Origin: the human T2T-CHM13v2.0 reference genome, Homo sapiens
Direction: 5' to 3' (one strand)
Assembly: GCF_009914755.1 (NCBI RefSeq)
Contig: NC_060931.1
DNA length: 64,000 bases
Shown here: positions 1,572 through 17,902 of the stretch, piece by piece
Numbering within the stretch: the first letter of the stretch is position 1
How the letters are laid out: every line of letters begins with the position of its first letter
Translations under genes and position numbers: made by a program
Notes under the pieces: generated by a model
Databases searched by the model: none
What the model was told of the DNA's origin: nothing
The model's input: the letters and a program-made list of their open reading frames with translations, nothing else

Positions 1572-4500
1572 TTTTTTCTTACTTTATCTTTTAAGAATTA
1601 ATGAGTATAAAAGAAAAATTAGGCAGTTTACCCTTTTCAGATTTTTATTTCTTTTTTTTTTAATTGGGGGAAATAAGCACTATTAACAGATTCAGCACTA
1701 CAAGTATTTTGAATGTTGTTGCTGTTGGTCATTTGGCCTGCCTTTTCCCTTCCTATTTCACTTTGCCTCCCATCACACAACTGCGTGTAAATGGTGTCAC
1801 TTGTTCACCTCTTTACTTCATTCTTAACAAGTGTATAGTTCTCTAGGACAGTTGATGTATGTTAAGGTGATATCTGTGTCTGTATTGACTTGTCTTGTGT
1901 TACATTAAACAGTAGGCAGAACTGAGGTCTCAAGTTTGCACTCTTGGCCATAGAACTAAAAATGAAACCTGAGATTGACCCAAGCACCTATCTGAGATTG
2001 GTATATAATATTTCTATAATGATATATTTTATAGTAGATATTACAATAGCATCTGACTTTGAGTCACAGAAACCTTAAACTGAGGAGACAATAGTTCAGA
2101 ACCTTTTTAAGAGCCATTCTAAAAGTGACCAGCAGGAGGGATCTAGTAGTGAATAATATCTTAATAGCAATTTTAGGAGAAAATGACTCTTTCGTCCAGA
2201 AGAGCTCTGCAGAACCAGGGCTCCCGTTTATCTTGTGCTATCTCTGTAGTATTTTCATTTGAGAGAGGAGGCTGAGTTTCCAGAGCTTTGCTTTCATTTA
2301 TTTTTATACACATTGTCTCTCTATATCTGCTTGTGGATATTGTTATTTTGAAGAGAAATGGTTTGTGGTTGTCCAGTGGTATACAACTGACAGGCATTTC
2401 ATTAAGCACATAGACCAGACTTTGTGAATGGTTCAGATATTTTTTCATTAAAAAACAAGGTATGGCAGATGGACTTTTCCATGGGTCAAATTTTTTGTGT
2501 GAGAGATAGAGGTACATGTCTTCTGATGATGTGCTGTGGAATGCAATGTGGGAAACCTACATCTGGCTAGTGCTTACATTTGCTCAAAAAGCATGTTGTA
2601 TGAAGCTGACTGCCACCATGCTAAAGCAGATTCATATTAAGAAGTGTCGGTCGATCCAGTGGCTCTTAAGAGTGAATAGCTTTATGGAATCAAGTATGTC
2701 CCTGAGTAGCAAGATTAGGCCTCACCAAAGAAGAAATTAACCTGCACTTTCAAAAAGTACCATGTATAGGAATGAAACATTGAGGTCCCACTTTATTCTG
2801 TCTTTAGTACATGGTTTTACTTATTTTGGGGATGGATAGAAATATATTTTTGCTAGTTCTAGGCTTGAATCATGGGCTCCTTGGCTTTCCTAGCATCCCA
2901 AAGCAGTCAACAGTGATTTCTTAAGCAATTTGATCTGTACCTTTACTTGTGAAAGGTATGCTATATAATTCAGCAAGTACCAACTTGTGTAGCTGCAGAA
3001 TAACCAAGTGGCTATCCAGTCAAGTAAATACAGTTTGCTTACATACTTCAACAGTTTCATAAAACGATTCCCCTGAGTGACACAAGAACATAAAATGTTA
3101 ATATCACTAATATAGCCTGTTAAATCTTTTGTGGAGACAGGTGCAAATCAGAAGATTGACAAGGAAGAACTTGAGCTTGCTAAATAAGACTTCCTAAATT
3201 TAAAAGCTCTAGTTTTGCTTAGTGTGAATTCTGGCACTTTAAAAAGATTAAGCAAGTGAAATTCTGCTGCCCTCCACCATTTATTTTTACAGTGCTTTGT
3301 AATTTTTTTCATCAGTTCCTTAAATGTTATTTGGAGGAAACTAAGTTCTTGACCTCAGTAATTTTATTTTTGTTTTTCCCTAAATGTTTCCCTACTAGTC
3401 TTTTTGGAAAACATGTTTGTTTTAATTTCATCTTCCCTCACTTTATTTAGGTAGAATTTTTCCCCCTTCATTTCTGAAATTTTTTGCTCACCGCCATGTT
3501 TAAATGGGGTTGAATCATAGCGAGCCATTTGCTCTTGCCAAAGTGAGATAGATGTACTGAGGAGATAATTGAAAAGTCAGACTCTGTACTGTGGGGCTTT
3601 AATCGGAGCACTGCTGGAAATGATTGCAGAGAATGTAGTGCTTCATATATCCATGACCAAGATTGACATGTTGCTCACAACATGTCACAATTTAGTGAGG
3701 AGCTACATGTATTTCCAAGAATTCCAGCATAGATTATAATTTAAATAATCGAATTTGGTATTTAGGTACATTGTTTATATAGCCAAGTGTATATGCTTTA
3801 CTACCTAACAATTATTCTAGCCTAGGTGAATCCCTAATTGAAACACCTGGCTAACACTTTAGACACATAAATTAAGTGGGATACAGTTTTCTCATTTGTA
3901 TTATCTCCAGCTTCAACCTCATTTATCCTTTTTCCTAGTATAATACATTGTTTTCAACCAGAAATTAAAGTAGATATCCAACATTATTTTCAGTGCTTGT
4001 ACTTCATGAGAAATAATCTGATTTTCAAGACACCTCTTAAGTGCATTTGCATTTTATTTTGGTAATGGCAGAGACCTCATGTGGCCAGTTTGATTGATTG
4101 AAGAATGTATCACTCTTATTCAAGCAAAGGAATTCAGACTTAAATGCCTACCTCTGTGCTGAAGCTGACAGACAGTATTAACTCTTATCAAGGCCATCTT
4201 TTAGACCTGATTTTCATTTATATGAAAACAGACCTGTCCATGTCTAATAAGTAAAAACTGATAGAATACATTAAAAAGTCACTGGTTTATCATAGAAAAG
4301 TTTGATGGGTTTAGAGCTCAGTGACTTAAGCTTGTAAAACTGCATTCTTGGGCAAAATATTTATATTGTATATAAATGGTTGGCAGCTTATTCCAGTTGA
4401 TCTCTTCACATCTGCCTTAAAAGTGCTATGTAGAGATACATTAACAGAGTTATAATAAAACAGTGTTTTAAAATCTAGCCTATAAACAAAAACTAGTTTG

Positions 4501-13370: not shown

Positions 13371-13450
<80 letters not shown>

Positions 13451-13461
13451 GTATATATATA
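13371..13461. repeat. Compound (TA)n(CA)n(TA)n microsatellite between the convergent 3' ends
   Basis: Directly visible. Confidence 0.97.
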
Positions 13462-13877
13462 GTCTCTTTGCCAGTGTTTTCATACCTGATCAATGTTCAG
13501 CAGCCCTCTTGGGGATTTCTGATAGTGGTGATTCACAATGTATCTGAGGCAGAAGTAGAGGGAAGGAAGACAGCGAAACATACAACGTCATCTTAGGGGA
13601 AAGTGAGGTTCTTTAGAGTCACTAGGATAGCTTGAGTAACATAAAGACTCATAACCACCTTTAGGATCCCCCTTTTTTTTTCTTCCGGTTTCTCTCCTTC
13701 TCTTGCCTAATTTCTTTGCCTGCAGAGTTGGACAAGTGTAACTCAGCACGGAGGCTCCTGTGCTACGGGTGTGAGCCGACATTCTCAGGCACTTTGGCGA
13801 TGAGCCTCATACACAAGTGAAGGCTTTAAGAAGTCCGAGGAAACTACTAGAGCTTGAACCAGTTTACACAAAAACAC

Positions 13878-13883
13878 TTTAAT
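13878..13883 (-). terminator. PODXL: PODXL poly(A) signal ATTAAA
   Basis: tttaat on + strand; AT-rich upstream context. Confidence 0.75.
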
Positions 13884-13972
13884 TGACAGTATACAATTTT
13901 CCAAAATATATTTTTGTAAGAAAATGCAATAATTATTAACTATAGTTTTTACAAACAAGTTTCTCAGTAAAT

Positions 13973-13997
13973 TCCAGTGTACTTCAGACCCCTGTCC
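13973..13997 (-). promoter_or_regulatory. miR-199-5p 8mer site with extended 3' complementarity
   Basis: mRNA GGACAGGGGUCUGAAGUACACUGGA contains ACACUGGA; miRNA sequence recalled from memory. Confidence 0.75.
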
Positions 13998-16752
13998 ACT
14001 AAGACATATATGATCCCCCAGTTCCTGGGCAAACTGTTGAACATTCACTGCAGACAAAAAGACCAACACCAAAGAGTCATCTGTGTCCTCCATGCTGTGT
14101 TTGCAGCAGACCTGAGGGATCAGCTAGTGACCGTGACAAAAGCTATGCTACAGTTTTACTCTTGCCCTCTCTGCCTCCCCCATCATGTTTCCTTGGTCCC
14201 TCAGTCCTGTTGGAGTAAGTTCCATATATAAAAGCTCATCCAAAACTTTGTTTCTTGGCAGAAAGAAAGAATTGTTCACTTACATCTTAAACCTAAATGA
14301 TTCAGAGAAAGTGTAGAAGACCAGTTCTTATGTTTGTGTTCATGCCCTCCCTAGCCTTGCTAGGGTAACAACTGGGAAAGGAATTCTGTCCTTTGTGTCA
14401 TTCTGGCACCTTCGAGTAGCAATTCTTAATTTACCGATTATTCCTTCTGAGGCGCACAGTCTGTGGATCCAGGTTTTAATCTTGTTTCTGTCCTGAACCA
14501 TGTGATTTTGAGGAAGTCACTTCATCTTTGTGAGCTTCAGATTATCTTTTTCTCTAGAAAAAGATTGGACTAGATCTTGAAATACCTTTCTCCATGACTA
14601 CAGGGTTGCCTGCCAACCAGAGCATATTGACTCCAACCTTTACTGAAATGGAGCTGTGACTTTGCTGGGGAGGGGGCAGGGTTGCATTTTAAAATTAAAA
14701 AAACAAAACAAAACACCTGATCTACAAGACAAATACTTTATCATAAGTTTGTCTTGTTATATTTCATTTTTTGTTTAAAAAAAAAAATCAAGCAAAAACT
14801 TGTCATTTCCAGTAAGACATTTACATTACTGTCCAGAGAAAAAACTTGGCCATCACTCAGCTAACATAATGCTTTTTCAAAGTATGTTCACTTAAAGCAG
14901 TGCAGGGTAGGTTAACATGGTCACTGTATTTACATTATCAAAAAAATATGTGTATATGTATCAGTTTGAACTTGTTCTTCAAAGTTTCTCCAGTATATTG
15001 TCAAAAAAGATAAAGCTCAAGAAGTGGTTTAAATAAACTTTCTGCTAGCTTTCCTTATCAAGCGGGAAAAAAATCTGGTGCCTAGACTAGATTAAACCCG
15101 TATTCTGTCTTACAACGCAAAGAATATTCTGTACCTCCTTCATAAGCTTTGCTGCCTGTCTCCCCACTGTCATGACAGTAGGCTTCCTAGTCATCATACT
15201 TGTGGTTTCTGGCCTCCTGTGCAGCTTGGGGAAACCACAGTTTACCACTGAAAGAGTTGATGATAAACTGTCTTTGCTACAACCTGTTTAAGTCATGCTG
15301 AGCTTCTAGTGTTCCTCTTACCTCTTCCCAGACCCAATGCTCTCTGAATTATCAGAGAGCATTTAGAACCCAGTAAAGGTGGCAGAAGATGATGACCTTT
15401 ATAGATGCATGGCTGTTTGGCCTGTTGACATAGGTGTCCTGGTGGCAAGAGCAAGGCAAGGTGTCAGATTCTGAAGCTGTCCTAAGCCTAGACTAACACA
15501 GTTTGGACGAATATAAAGCAGTAACCTCTGAATCAGCCCAGAGCCTCTCCGGGTTCTCCTTGGACAGAGCGATGGAGAGTCAGGAGAGTCAGGACCGACC
15601 TGGCCAGGCACTCCTGCTCTCTAGTCCTTGCCAGTCATCATCTGTCTCCAAGAGGCCATAGGGTTGCAGCCTTTGATTGATTTGCAGAGGCCTATTTGCT
15701 GTCTCCGTCAAAAGCCCTGGCTGGTGAAGTGTGACCCAGGATCAGCAAAGGAGGAATAATCCAGTCTGGCCTCTCCCACGGGACCACAACAGAAAACCTA
15801 CTGGGTGGAGAGAACCCAGCGCTGGGCAAGAAGGAAGCAAACACCTCACTCAAGCCTAACAAGATTTCCTGTTTTCCCCCAAACAGGCACTGTTCTCCAT
15901 CCTGCCCACCTCCAAACACTAGAGCATCGGGGCAGATGTTTTTGGAACTTGTTAGCCTCGCATCCCTCTAACTCCTGGGAAACTCGCTGGGGCCCTATGT
16001 GAACCCCTGGCCTTCCTTTTCCCCTAGGATATCAGATGGCTACAGACTGTGAGGAAGGAATTAGGCAGATGGTGCAGGACAGATCTTCCCCAGCCCCTCC
16101 CCCTACCCTTTTAAAAAGTAAGCCATCCCGAGTGGATAGCCTATTTCATCAGAGCTACTACAGCCGGAGCCTGACTCTTAAGACCCTGGAGGTGTGGCGT
16201 TTCACCCGAAAAATGGCAATTTCATTCCCCTAAGCAGTTCTGCCCATTTTCCTACTTGATCCCAGGGAATTTACGCCCAGAACGATGGAGACCATGGCGA
16301 AAGTTCAACATTCCACACAGGATTCCCCCTTCTCAATCAGATGAAACCTCACCATGCCCACTGCTTAGGAGCCTTCTACATGGCAGCTAACTGCCGAGCC
16401 CATAAAAGTCCTATATTGGGGAATAGACATAGCTTTGTGTTCCCCTGAGATGCCACCAGAAACTGCAAGAGAACCGCAGCAGCCCCACTAGGCTCACAGA
16501 GAAGAGGAACAGCAAGGCCTAGCTCCAGGCCAGGACAGTGGGACGTTCCCACAACAGTCTGTCCCCCAGGCTGCCCTTCATGCACCCAGCATGCACTGCG
16601 CTTTCCAGGCCCTCTTTTCCTGTGGCACAGGAGAATCAGAGTGAGTGAGATGAGCTAACTGGACGTCTGCCAACTGTCTGAGCTTTTGGCCTTTGGCAGT
16701 GGAGGGCTGGGTTAGAAAACAACTATAACAAAACTCTCAGCAACTTGAAATG

Positions 16753-16760
16753 TCCCTGAG
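16753..16760 (-). promoter_or_regulatory. miR-125-5p 8mer site (CUCAGGGA) in the PODXL 3' UTR
   Basis: tccctgag on + strand; a second 7mer-m8 lies at 16443-16449. Confidence 0.5.
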
Positions 16761-17902
16761 TTTCCTATGATATACAGGGGAAAGCCTGTCCTTCCTGGCT
16801 GCTTTAATGGATTGTCTCTGAAGACACATCGCTGATGGGGGGCCCCGGGAAGGCCTCTCCTGCAGCCACTGCTCTTTCATACTGGGTCTCAGGGAATCAC
16901 TCCCATCAGCTGAGCAGTGAACAACAAAAGGAACACGCTGCTCTCACTAGCTACAGCAGATTTTAGTCCCTGGTGGAAATGGAAGCCCAAAGAAGATCGT
17001 GGGTGGCCTCTGCAAGGAGTGCCAGGGGCAATGGGCCAGTGTTCCTGCTGACCCCTCATCAGCTGCCCTGAGATACCAGCCTGGACTCGAGTGTCCCCTT
17101 CTCTCCTCACCTGCACGCAGGTCCCCTAAGCAGACCTGGTTCACGCACGGAGACCTGTGTGGGTTAAGCCCCCATCTCACGAAGCAAATGTGAGAAAATC
17201 CGAATCCAGAACAAGGGGTTCAAGGTTATGAATAACCTGTGCTAATCCCAGAGGCCCCAGGACAGAGTAAGTGGGAACAAACACTGAGTGTAGGGAGGGG
17301 TAAGAACATAGAGGGTGGGAAGATGGGTACACGAGGCTGGGGTAGGAGAAGGAAAACTTGGGAGCTGGACTTTCAGGTCGTCAGATCCCACCGAGCCAGG
17401 ATGTAGCCCTGCCCTCCTTTCCAGCCCAGCCACCTGCTGGAGTTTCACCCCTGCCCGGGACTGCTCTGGACGGAAGGCACATGTGAACACAGCAGTGTGG
17501 CATGGTGCAAATGGAATCTTTGTTCTCATCCTGGCTCTGTCACCAAGTGGCTCTGACCTTGGGCAAGTCACTTACCCTCTTCAGGTCTCGGCAATCTCAC
17601 TGCAGAATGAAGGGATTCCACTAGTTCATCTATAAAGTCCCTTACGTGGCTTTTTCTTGATCTCCCTCATCATCCAGCAGCACTGAGCTCAGGCACTAGT
17701 GGGTTATTTTACAAGAGGAATCTGGACAGAATGTGATTTGTTCAGGTTGAAAAGGGAAAAATTAAGGCCCTGGGGGGATTGGGAGGGGACACCCCTCGGA
17801 GTTCACTCTCCCTCCCCAGTCTTTCCCTTCCCCATCCAAACGGCACTTGGGGTGGTTGGTCTGGAGCTCTGTGGTGCTGCTGGAGGCCACCGGCAGACCG
17901 GA

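What the first reader, a model, noticed from the sequence alone, without database searches (positions are those of the whole stretch)
13973..13997. PODXL 3' UTR site pairs with nearly all of miR-199a-5p: candidate TDMD trigger rather than an ordinary seed site
Seen: the + strand reads tCCAGTGT-act-TCAGAC-c-CCTGT-cc, so the mRNA reads GGACAGGGGUCUGAAGUACACUGGA, 90 nt upstream of the ATTAAA. Recalled from memory: miR-199a-5p is CCCAGUGUUCAGACUACCUGUUC, and PODXL is a reported miR-199-5p target. Aligning the two gives A opposite nt 1 and Watson-Crick pairs at nt 2-8. A 3-nt target bulge follows, then Watson-Crick at nt 9-14, G:U at 15, a bulged A16, Watson-Crick at 17-21, G:U at 22 and Watson-Crick at 23. 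Seed plus bulge plus pairing through the miRNA 3' end is the architecture of ZSWIM8-dependent triggers such as Cyrano/miR-7 and NREP/miR-29b. Inference: abundant PODXL mRNA (podocytes, endothelium, pluripotent cells) could destroy miR-199a-5p, forming a mutual-repression switch. The fit to miR-199b-5p is weaker (two extra wobbles), predicting paralog selectivity. I do not know of this being described.
Basis: partly seen in the sequence, partly recalled or inferred. Interest (0 to 1): 0.85.

Follow-up and report, generated by a model that had tools for sequence, protein, structure and literature searches.

The report
Known miR-199a-5p site in PODXL UTR
The end of the PODXL 3' UTR does hold a nearly full match to miR-199a-5p, but a 2022 study already listed it as a candidate microRNA-destroying site, and the knockout data read here show no sign that it destroys the microRNA.

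Summary
**Observation: confirmed.** Window 13973-13997 (minus strand, PODXL 3' UTR positions 3906-3930) pairs with miR-199a-5p exactly as described. There is an A opposite nt 1 and pairs at nt 2-8, followed by a 3-nt target bulge. Nt 9-15 then pair, A16 is bulged and nt 17-23 pair. The duplex energy is -30.7 kcal/mol, against -25.7 for miR-199b-5p.

**Not new.** TDMDfinder (Simeone 2022, Tables S1 and S4) lists this exact site as one of 606 "high-confidence" predicted TDMD pairs. It scores the 3'-pairing region as conserved.

**No functional support found.**
- That study found no tumour type with a target-miRNA anticorrelation (mean rho +0.14).
- It annotates no CLASH, CLEAR-CLIP or TarBase support.
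- Its mouse sheet has no Podxl row for miR-199a-5p.
- In Zswim8-knockout mouse embryos, miR-199a-5p does not rise in any of 12 tissues, and it tracks its 3p strand.
- Predicted pairing leaves no miRNA nucleotide unpaired at positions 9-10, unlike typical validated triggers.

**Best reading.** This is a high-affinity repressive miR-199-5p site in a published target. It is only a candidate trigger and has never been tested in human PODXL-high cells. I put the chance that it is a physiological trigger at about 0.12.

The parts
13973..13980 (-). 8mer match to miR-199-5p: A opposite nt 1 plus Watson-Crick pairs to nt 2-8. This is 3' UTR position 3923-3930.
   Evidence: The UTR coordinates are the same as the TDMDfinder row hsa-miR-199a-5p_PODXL_3923_3930.
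13981..13983 (-). 3-nt bulge on the target side only. No miRNA nucleotide is left unpaired opposite it.
   Evidence: RNAduplex and cofold structure. TDMDfinder gives bulge_ext = 3.
13984..13997 (-). 3'-pairing region. It pairs with miRNA nt 9-15 (six Watson-Crick pairs plus G:U at nt 15) and nt 17-23 (five Watson-Crick pairs, G:U at nt 22, then Watson-Crick at nt 23). A16 of the miRNA is bulged.
   Evidence: -19.7 kcal/mol for nt 9-23 and -15.1 for nt 11-23. TDMDfinder 3C type '3C_n6+', PhyloP-based score on the 3C region 4.26, conserved 'YES'.
13878..13883 (-). Terminal ATTAAA polyadenylation signal, 21 nt before the transcript end at 13863 and 90 nt from the 3' end of the site.
   Evidence: 3P-seq affected-isoform ratio 97.7 % for the segment holding the site (Simeone Table S4).
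13863..17902 (-). PODXL 3' UTR (4040 nt, 47.5 % G+C) that carries the site near its distal end. Further AUUAAA signals lie at 14475-14480 and 16803-16808. There is no AAUAAA.
   Evidence: Hub annotation.
17036..17042 (-). Second, ordinary 7mer-m8 match to miR-199-5p in the same UTR. Its 3' pairing is weak (duplex -21.9 kcal/mol).

Best explanation
The stretch is a single-copy, high-affinity miR-199-5p response element at the distal end of the PODXL 3' UTR. AGO loaded with miR-199a-5p docks on the 8mer. Pairing beyond the seed adds affinity and favours 199a over 199b. The outcome is ordinary repression of PODXL mRNA, which several papers report.

The near-complete complementarity also gives the site the outline of a TDMD trigger, and TDMDfinder listed it as such in 2022. 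That role is untested, and the ZSWIM8-loss data I could read give it no support.

- **Shown:** the sequence, the pairing and its energies, the place in the UTR, and the published listing.
- **Taken from cited literature:** repression of PODXL by miR-199a/b-5p, and conservation of the region.
- **Inferred:** that the 3' pairing adds affinity, and that the site does not cause physiologically meaningful miRNA decay.
For: **Site quality.**
- 8mer with A at t1 and a full duplex of -30.7 kcal/mol.
- It lies 110 nt from the UTR end, with 77 % A+U in the 30 nt downstream and an ordinary opening energy (7.9 against a median of 7.6 kcal/mol).
- The site is included in 97.7 % of 3P-seq isoforms.
- It sits in TDMDfinder's sheet of conserved TargetScan sites.

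**PODXL as a target.**
- miR-199a/b-5p lowers PODXL in cornea (PMC5824028 passages).

**Against miRNA destruction, mouse Zswim8 knockout.**
- In Shi 2023 Table S1, miR-199a-5p occurs only in the CPM sheet, not in the sensitive, secondarily sensitive or false-positive sheets.
- log2(KO/het) runs from -0.56 to +0.10 across 12 tissues (kidney -0.19, lung -0.09).
- It differs from the 3p strand by at most 0.13.
- In Jones 2023, logFC is -0.158 (FDR 0.96 and 1) in the 2 of 8 tissue tables shown to me, and tailed and trimmed fractions are alike in both genotypes.

**Against miRNA destruction, human data.**
- Simeone Table S4 records 0 tumour types in the miRNA-expression test, mean rho +0.143, support class 'no'.
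- The main text of the EMBO J 2026 study of ZSWIM8 knockdown in 8 breast-cancer lines holds 0 mentions of miR-199 or PODXL.
Against: - The complementarity goes far beyond what repression needs, and only 2.2e-4 of random flanks match it.
- TDMDfinder scores the 3'-pairing region as phylogenetically conserved (4.26; NREP scores 6.44). That fits selection on more than the seed.
- The site meets TDMDfinder's high-confidence rules, which were tuned on assays where 17 of 37 predictions lowered the miRNA on overexpression.
- The mouse knockout data are bulk tissue. A rise confined to podocytes or endothelium could be hidden by stromal miR-199a.
- The mouse site may itself lack the pairing, since there is no Podxl row among the 5 mmu-miR-199a-5p rows of the mouse sheet.
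- No ZSWIM8-loss data from human PODXL-high cells were available to me.
- One paper claims target-driven loss of miR-199a-5p by ApoE mRNA, so the miRNA may be degradable in this way. That paper reports no ZSWIM8 test in the passages I read.
Confidence: 0.75

Rival explanations
1. The site is a true ZSWIM8-dependent TDMD trigger, active only in cell types where PODXL mRNA is very abundant (podocytes, endothelium, pluripotent cells). [quoted passage not shown] The bulge lets the duplex bend, ZSWIM8-CUL3 ubiquitylates AGO, and miR-199a-5p is lost. The result is a double-negative loop that spares miR-199b-5p.
For: - 8mer, 3-nt bulge and pairing through nt 23.
- 3' pairing energy of -15.1 kcal/mol, within the range of validated triggers.
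- TDMDfinder high-confidence listing with an MFE ratio of 0.93 and a conserved 3C region.
- UTR location and 97.7 % isoform inclusion.
- Weaker pairing to 199b (-25.7 overall, -12.3 for nt 11-23).
- Features that ZSWIM8 reads, an empty PAZ pocket and a bent duplex, are plausible for this pairing. This last point is inference.
Against: - miR-199a-5p is not ZSWIM8-sensitive in any of 12 mouse embryonic tissues, and it is absent from the sheets that also carry the MEF and iNeuron columns.
- It is not significant in the 2 Jones 2023 tables I saw.
- There is no anticorrelation in any tumour type tested.
- TDMDfinder annotates no CLASH, CLEAR-CLIP or TarBase support.
- There is no mouse Podxl row for miR-199a-5p.
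- Predicted pairing at nt 9-10 is unlike the loops of validated triggers, and scanMiR's rule fails.
- The supplementary region, nt 13-16, is weak: a wobble at 15 and a bulge at 16.
- Predictions validate poorly at endogenous level. Of three TDMDfinder targets for miR-29b-3p, only NREP was bound in miR-eCLIP.
Confidence: 0.12
2. The site works as a plain 8mer. The extra complementarity is a fortuitous or lineage-specific by-product with no effect of its own, and the conservation of the neighbouring bases reflects other constraints near the 3' end of the UTR.
For: - At 2.2e-4 per 8mer site, thousands of equally good matches are expected among the roughly 14.5 million TargetScan pairs (my extrapolation).
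- TDMDfinder's predicted class is 0.8 % of all interactions.
- The mouse sheet lacks Podxl.
- miR-199b-5p, with weaker 3' pairing, is also reported to target PODXL (title of Favreau 2012, seen only as a reference).
Against: The 3C conservation score is 4.26, flagged 'YES'. I could not see the alignment itself, so I cannot say which bases carry that score.
Confidence: 0.1
3. AGO2 slices PODXL mRNA at this site, because miRNA nt 9-15 are paired.
For: Contiguous predicted pairing of miRNA nt 2-15 on the guide side.
Against: The 3-nt target bulge sits directly beside the central region. The review states that loops disrupting this region prevent cleavage. Nothing I read reports cleavage.
Confidence: 0.02

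Closest known systems
TDMDfinder high-confidence predicted TDMD pairs (Simeone et al., Nucleic Acids Res 2022, PMC8887481)
   Same: It is literally one of them. The row is hsa-miR-199a-5p_PODXL_3923_3930: 8mer, RNAhybrid MFE -35.7, ratio 0.927, bulge 3, 3C type n6+, HC, 3C score 4.26 and conserved.
   Different: Nothing differs; this is the same site. The pair id occurs 7 times in the supplement. I saw two of those rows (Table S1 and the first sheet of Table S4). By my count the other five also lie in Table S4 and none in the validation table S3, so I infer it was not among the tested pairs. It did not reach 'pan-cancer supported'.
Validated ZSWIM8-dependent triggers (CYRANO:miR-7, NREP:miR-29b, SERPINE1:miR-30b/c, BCL2L11:miR-221/222)
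   Same: Strong seed site, an unpaired stretch on the target, pairing that reaches the miRNA 3' end, a 3' pairing energy in range, and a 3' UTR location.
   Different: - In validated triggers the loop disrupts pairing at miRNA nt 9-10. Here only the target bulges, and nt 9-15 are predicted paired.
- The distal helix is broken by a bulged A16 and holds two G:U pairs.
- Their miRNAs rise on ZSWIM8 loss. miR-199a-5p does not in the datasets read.
- I did not compute the pairing diagrams of these triggers myself. I rely on the review's text.
Canonical conserved 8mer site with extended 3' pairing
   Same: 8mer with A at t1, near the UTR end, A+U-rich downstream, target repression reported.
   Different: 14 further pairs beyond the seed, against the 3-5 bp typical of supplementary pairing.
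ApoE coding sequence as claimed trigger of miR-199a-5p (PMC10909902)
   Same: The same miRNA, and the same argument from pairing to its 3' end.
   Different: The sites there lie in a coding sequence and are several. The evidence is overexpression of untranslatable mRNA, and no ZSWIM8 test appears in the passages read. For PODXL there is a single UTR site and no experiment at all.

Membership tests
ZSWIM8-dependent TDMD trigger | Seed match to the miRNA | tested here: met
   8mer at 13973-13980.
ZSWIM8-dependent TDMD trigger | Unpaired central region (3-11 nt) that disrupts pairing at miRNA nt 9-10 and lets the duplex bend | tested here: inconclusive
   A 3-nt target bulge is present, but miRNA nt 9 and 10 are predicted paired. 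scanMiR's rule 'miRNA bulge of at least 2' is not met, while TDMDfinder's 'bulge 2-8' is met. Whether nt 9-12 pair inside AGO cannot be computed here.
ZSWIM8-dependent TDMD trigger | At least 6 contiguous pairs to the miRNA 3' region, with hybridisation energy near -9.6 to -17.1 kcal/mol | tested here: met
   Six Watson-Crick pairs (nt 9-14), five (nt 17-21), and seven with G:U in each block. -15.1 kcal/mol for nt 11-23 with ViennaRNA. The reference range comes from RNAstructure as quoted, so the comparison is approximate.
ZSWIM8-dependent TDMD trigger | Site in non-coding sequence of an expressed transcript isoform | tested here: met
   3' UTR position 3906-3930 of 4040. AIR 97.7 % in Simeone Table S4.
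ZSWIM8-dependent TDMD trigger | The miRNA rises on loss of ZSWIM8 without a rise of its opposite strand | tested here: not met
   From published tables, mouse only. 12 E18.5 tissues give log2 changes of -0.56 to +0.10, within 0.13 of the 3p strand. The miRNA is absent from the sensitive lists, which include MEF and iNeuron columns. 2 of 8 Jones tables were seen, both non-significant. Human PODXL-high cells were not available.
ZSWIM8-dependent TDMD trigger | Mutating the endogenous site raises the miRNA | not testable with these tools
   Searches for PODXL+TDMD (0 papers), ZSWIM8+miR-199 and miR-199a-5p+'target-directed miRNA degradation' found no such experiment.
ZSWIM8-dependent TDMD trigger | Conservation of the 3'-pairing bases | not tested
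   No other vertebrate genome is on hand. The published score is 4.26, 'conserved', yet no Podxl row exists among mouse miR-199a-5p predictions.
Canonical repressive miRNA site | 7-8mer seed match in a 3' UTR, with reported repression of the target | tested here: met
   The sequence was tested here. Repression is taken from passages of PMC3877122 and PMC5824028. The original reports, Cheung 2011 and Favreau 2012, were not seen (not held).

The most novel reading that the evidence does not exclude
In human cells where PODXL mRNA is very abundant, this one site is a cell-type-restricted, ZSWIM8-dependent trigger. It removes miR-199a-5p while sparing miR-199b-5p and miR-199a-3p, and so locks in a PODXL-high, miR-199a-low state. 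Its architecture would be unusual for a trigger: a bulge on the target side only and a bulged guide nucleotide in the distal helix.
Probability: 0.1. Interest if true: 0.6.

Novelty: already known. Interest (0 to 1): 0.25.

Why it matters
If the site did destroy miR-199a-5p, it would add a paralog-selective trigger to a still short list of validated mammalian triggers. It would also link podocalyxin, a marker of podocytes, endothelium and pluripotent cells, to control of a major mesenchymal miRNA.

As things stand, the value of this check is negative. The pairing is real, but the idea is already in a public prediction table. The knockout and tumour data that exist do not back it. Only an experiment in human cells that co-express both RNAs would be worth doing.

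Tried and rejected

- Shi 2020, Han 2020 and Favreau 2012 are not held.

**Conservation.** No other vertebrate genome is reachable, so I could not align the site across mammals. I rely on TDMDfinder's PhyloP-based score.

**Comparison with validated triggers.** I did not recompute known triggers such as CYRANO and NREP with the same energy model. Finding them would have needed patterns pieced together from miRNA sequence.

**Supplements.**
- Six of the eight Jones 2023 tissue tables were not seen.
- The datasets of the EMBO J 2026 breast-cancer study, the CLASHub tables and the Li 2021 CLASH tables were not seen either. Any of these may bear on the claim.

**Checks that gave nothing.**
- An Rfam scan of 13400-14600 found nothing at the site. 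It gave only sub-threshold hits on a microsatellite.
- A genome-wide search showed the stretch is not a repeat.
- The Mayaro virus paper that pairs the words ZSWIM8 and miR-199 is unrelated.

**Reruns and rejected readings.**
- I rejected the slicing reading for lack of any support.

Full report
**The sequence.** The minus strand, which is the PODXL mRNA sense, reads GGACAGGGGTCTGAAGTACACTGGA. The site occupies positions 3906-3930 of a 4040-nt 3' UTR. Its 3' end lies 90 nt before the terminal ATTAAA (13883-13878) and 110 nt before the transcript end. A genome-wide search finds the 201 bases around it only once, so it is not part of a repeat family.

**The miRNA.** I did not use the remembered sequence. 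The window's genome holds three Rfam mir-199 hairpins above the gathering score, on C1, C9 and C19. I read the 5p arms as L001:1548-1570:- and L002:1548-1570:-. The C19 hairpin holds the same 23-mer as C1. Both mature sequences agree with those printed in PMC3877122 (passage).

**The pairing.**
- Nt 1 is unpaired opposite an A, and nt 2-15 pair.
- A16 is bulged, and nt 17-23 pair.
- Three target bases bulge out between the partners of nt 8 and nt 9.
- The duplex energy is -30.7 kcal/mol. A perfect complement gives -43.9, and an "optimal TDMD" duplex mismatched at nt 9-11 gives -34.3.
- miR-199b-5p differs at nt 10 and 17, both C to U opposite G, and drops to -25.7.
- The 3' part alone (nt 11-23) gives -15.1 kcal/mol for 199a and -12.3 for 199b.

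**Chance.**
- Behind the same 8mer, 13 of 60,000 flanks drawn from a first-order model of this UTR reach -30.7 or lower (2.2e-4).
- Of 45 seed matches (6mer or better) on both strands of the window, the next best duplex is -23.8.
- So the match stands out locally.
- Simeone et al. start from 257,466 conserved and 14.28 million non-conserved human TargetScan interactions.
- Scaled to those numbers, that frequency predicts tens to thousands of equally good matches by chance. This is my extrapolation from one miRNA.
- Pairing alone therefore does not single the site out transcriptome-wide.

**Already in print.**
- Supplementary Table S1 of Simeone et al. 2022 (PMC8887481), sheet PREDICTED_TDMD_HUMAN_CS, holds the row hsa-miR-199a-5p_PODXL_3923_3930.
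- The row reads: 8mer, RNAhybrid MFE -35.7, ratio 0.927, bulge 3, seven consecutive 3' pairs (six without G:U), type 3C_n6+, "Predicted", "HC".
- It also reads: CLASH NO, CLEAR NO, TarBase NO, score on the 3C region 4.256, conserved YES.
- The UTR coordinates equal mine.
- It is one of 606 high-confidence pairs.
- The human sheet has no 199b-5p:PODXL row; 199b-5p is listed only with ETS1 and RB1.
- No main text in the library holds both PODXL and TDMD. Searches for ZSWIM8 with miR-199 and for miR-199a-5p with "target-directed miRNA degradation" bring up only the ApoE claim and reviews.

**What that study found for the pair** (Table S4, header, row).
- The site is included in 97.7 % of 3P-seq isoforms, and both RNAs count as expressed.
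- 0 tumour types are significant in both tests, and the support class is "no".
- 0 tumour types show a negative target-miRNA correlation (mean rho +0.143, median +0.086).
- 3 tumour types are significant in the activity test (mean rho +0.127).
- The pair id occurs seven times in the whole supplement. I saw two of those rows. By my count one lies in S1 and six in S4, which leaves none for the validation table S3, so I infer the pair was not among the 37 tested, of which 17 validated.
- The mouse sheet lists five mmu-miR-199a-5p pairs (Atxn7, Bcam, Ets1, Ipo8, Scamp1) and no Podxl.

**Loss of ZSWIM8.**
- Shi et al. 2023 (PMC10620050) sequenced small RNAs from 12 E18.5 tissues, kidney and lung included.
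- In their Table S1, miR-199a-5p occurs once, in the CPM sheet. It is therefore absent from the sheets of sensitive, secondarily sensitive and suspected false-positive miRNAs, which also carry MEF and iNeuron columns.
- From the CPM values, log2(KO/het) runs from -0.56 (eye) to +0.10 (stomach). Kidney is -0.19 and lung -0.09.
- The difference from miR-199a/b-3p is at most 0.13 in any tissue.
- Jones et al. 2023 (PMC10499020) covered eight tissues. The two tables shown to me give logFC -0.158 with FDR 0.96 and 1. Tailed and trimmed fractions are alike in both genotypes.
- The 2026 EMBO J study from the TDMDfinder laboratory knocked down ZSWIM8 in eight breast-cancer lines. Its main text does not mention miR-199 or PODXL. 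Its datasets were not readable.

**Limits of those negatives.** The mouse data are bulk tissue, and the mouse site may lack the pairing. No data come from human cells rich in PODXL. Shi 2020 and Han 2020 are not held.

**Fit to the known mechanism.**
- A 2024 review states that validated triggers have a seed match and usually at least 6 contiguous 3' pairs.
- It gives their 3' pairing energy as -9.6 to -17.1 kcal/mol.
- It describes 3-11 unpaired nucleotides that disrupt pairing at miRNA nt 9-10, because the central cleft of AGO holds only an unpaired guide in the TDMD conformation.
- The 2026 structure paper shows that ZSWIM8 reads the shifted PAZ domain, the emptied PAZ pocket and the trajectory of a duplex bent at the internal loop. 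It also shows that loop length matters.
- The PODXL site meets the seed, 3' pairing, energy and location features.
- Its centre is different. The bulge is on the target only, and nt 9-15 are predicted to pair.
- scanMiR's rule of at least two unpaired miRNA nucleotides therefore fails, while TDMDfinder's bulge rule passes.
- The supplementary region, nt 13-16, is weak: a wobble at 15 and a bulge at 16.
- Inside AGO the central pairs may simply not form. That would leave a 7/4-nt internal loop, which is plausible but is my inference.

**Verdict.**
- The best-supported reading is a high-affinity repressive miR-199-5p site in a gene that several papers call a direct target (passages; the original reports were not seen).
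- I put the chance of a physiological, ZSWIM8-dependent trigger role in some human cell type at about 0.12. I would expect a positive overexpression assay with roughly the 17-in-37 rate of TDMDfinder's own tests.

Noticed in passing
window 17036-17042 (-): A second match to miR-199-5p in the PODXL 3' UTR: a 7mer-m8 at UTR 861-867 with weak 3' pairing (duplex -21.9 kcal/mol).
   Followed up: partly
window 13878-13883, 14475-14480, 16803-16808 (-): The 4-kb PODXL 3' UTR holds three AUUAAA signals and no AAUAAA. Published 3P-seq data put 97.7 % of isoforms beyond the segment that holds the site.
   Followed up: partly
window 13380-13460: A (TA)n(CA)n microsatellite about 400 nt downstream of the PODXL transcript end. 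It draws sub-threshold Rfam hits (mir-297, 36.4 bits against a gathering score of 90).
   Followed up: yes
L002 1711-1796 (-): A mir-3154 hairpin (115.5 bits) lies about 130 nt upstream of the MIR199B hairpin on the same strand of C9.
   Followed up: no
L004-L006 (antisense strands of the three mir-199 hairpins): The opposite strand of each mir-199 hairpin also matches the Rfam model at 41-43 bits, below the cut-off of 60. This is expected for a near-palindromic hairpin.
   Followed up: no
PMC10899785 compared with PMC8887481: The review says 20 of 37 TDMDfinder predictions validated. The original paper and its Table S3 sheet say 17 of 37.
   Followed up: yes
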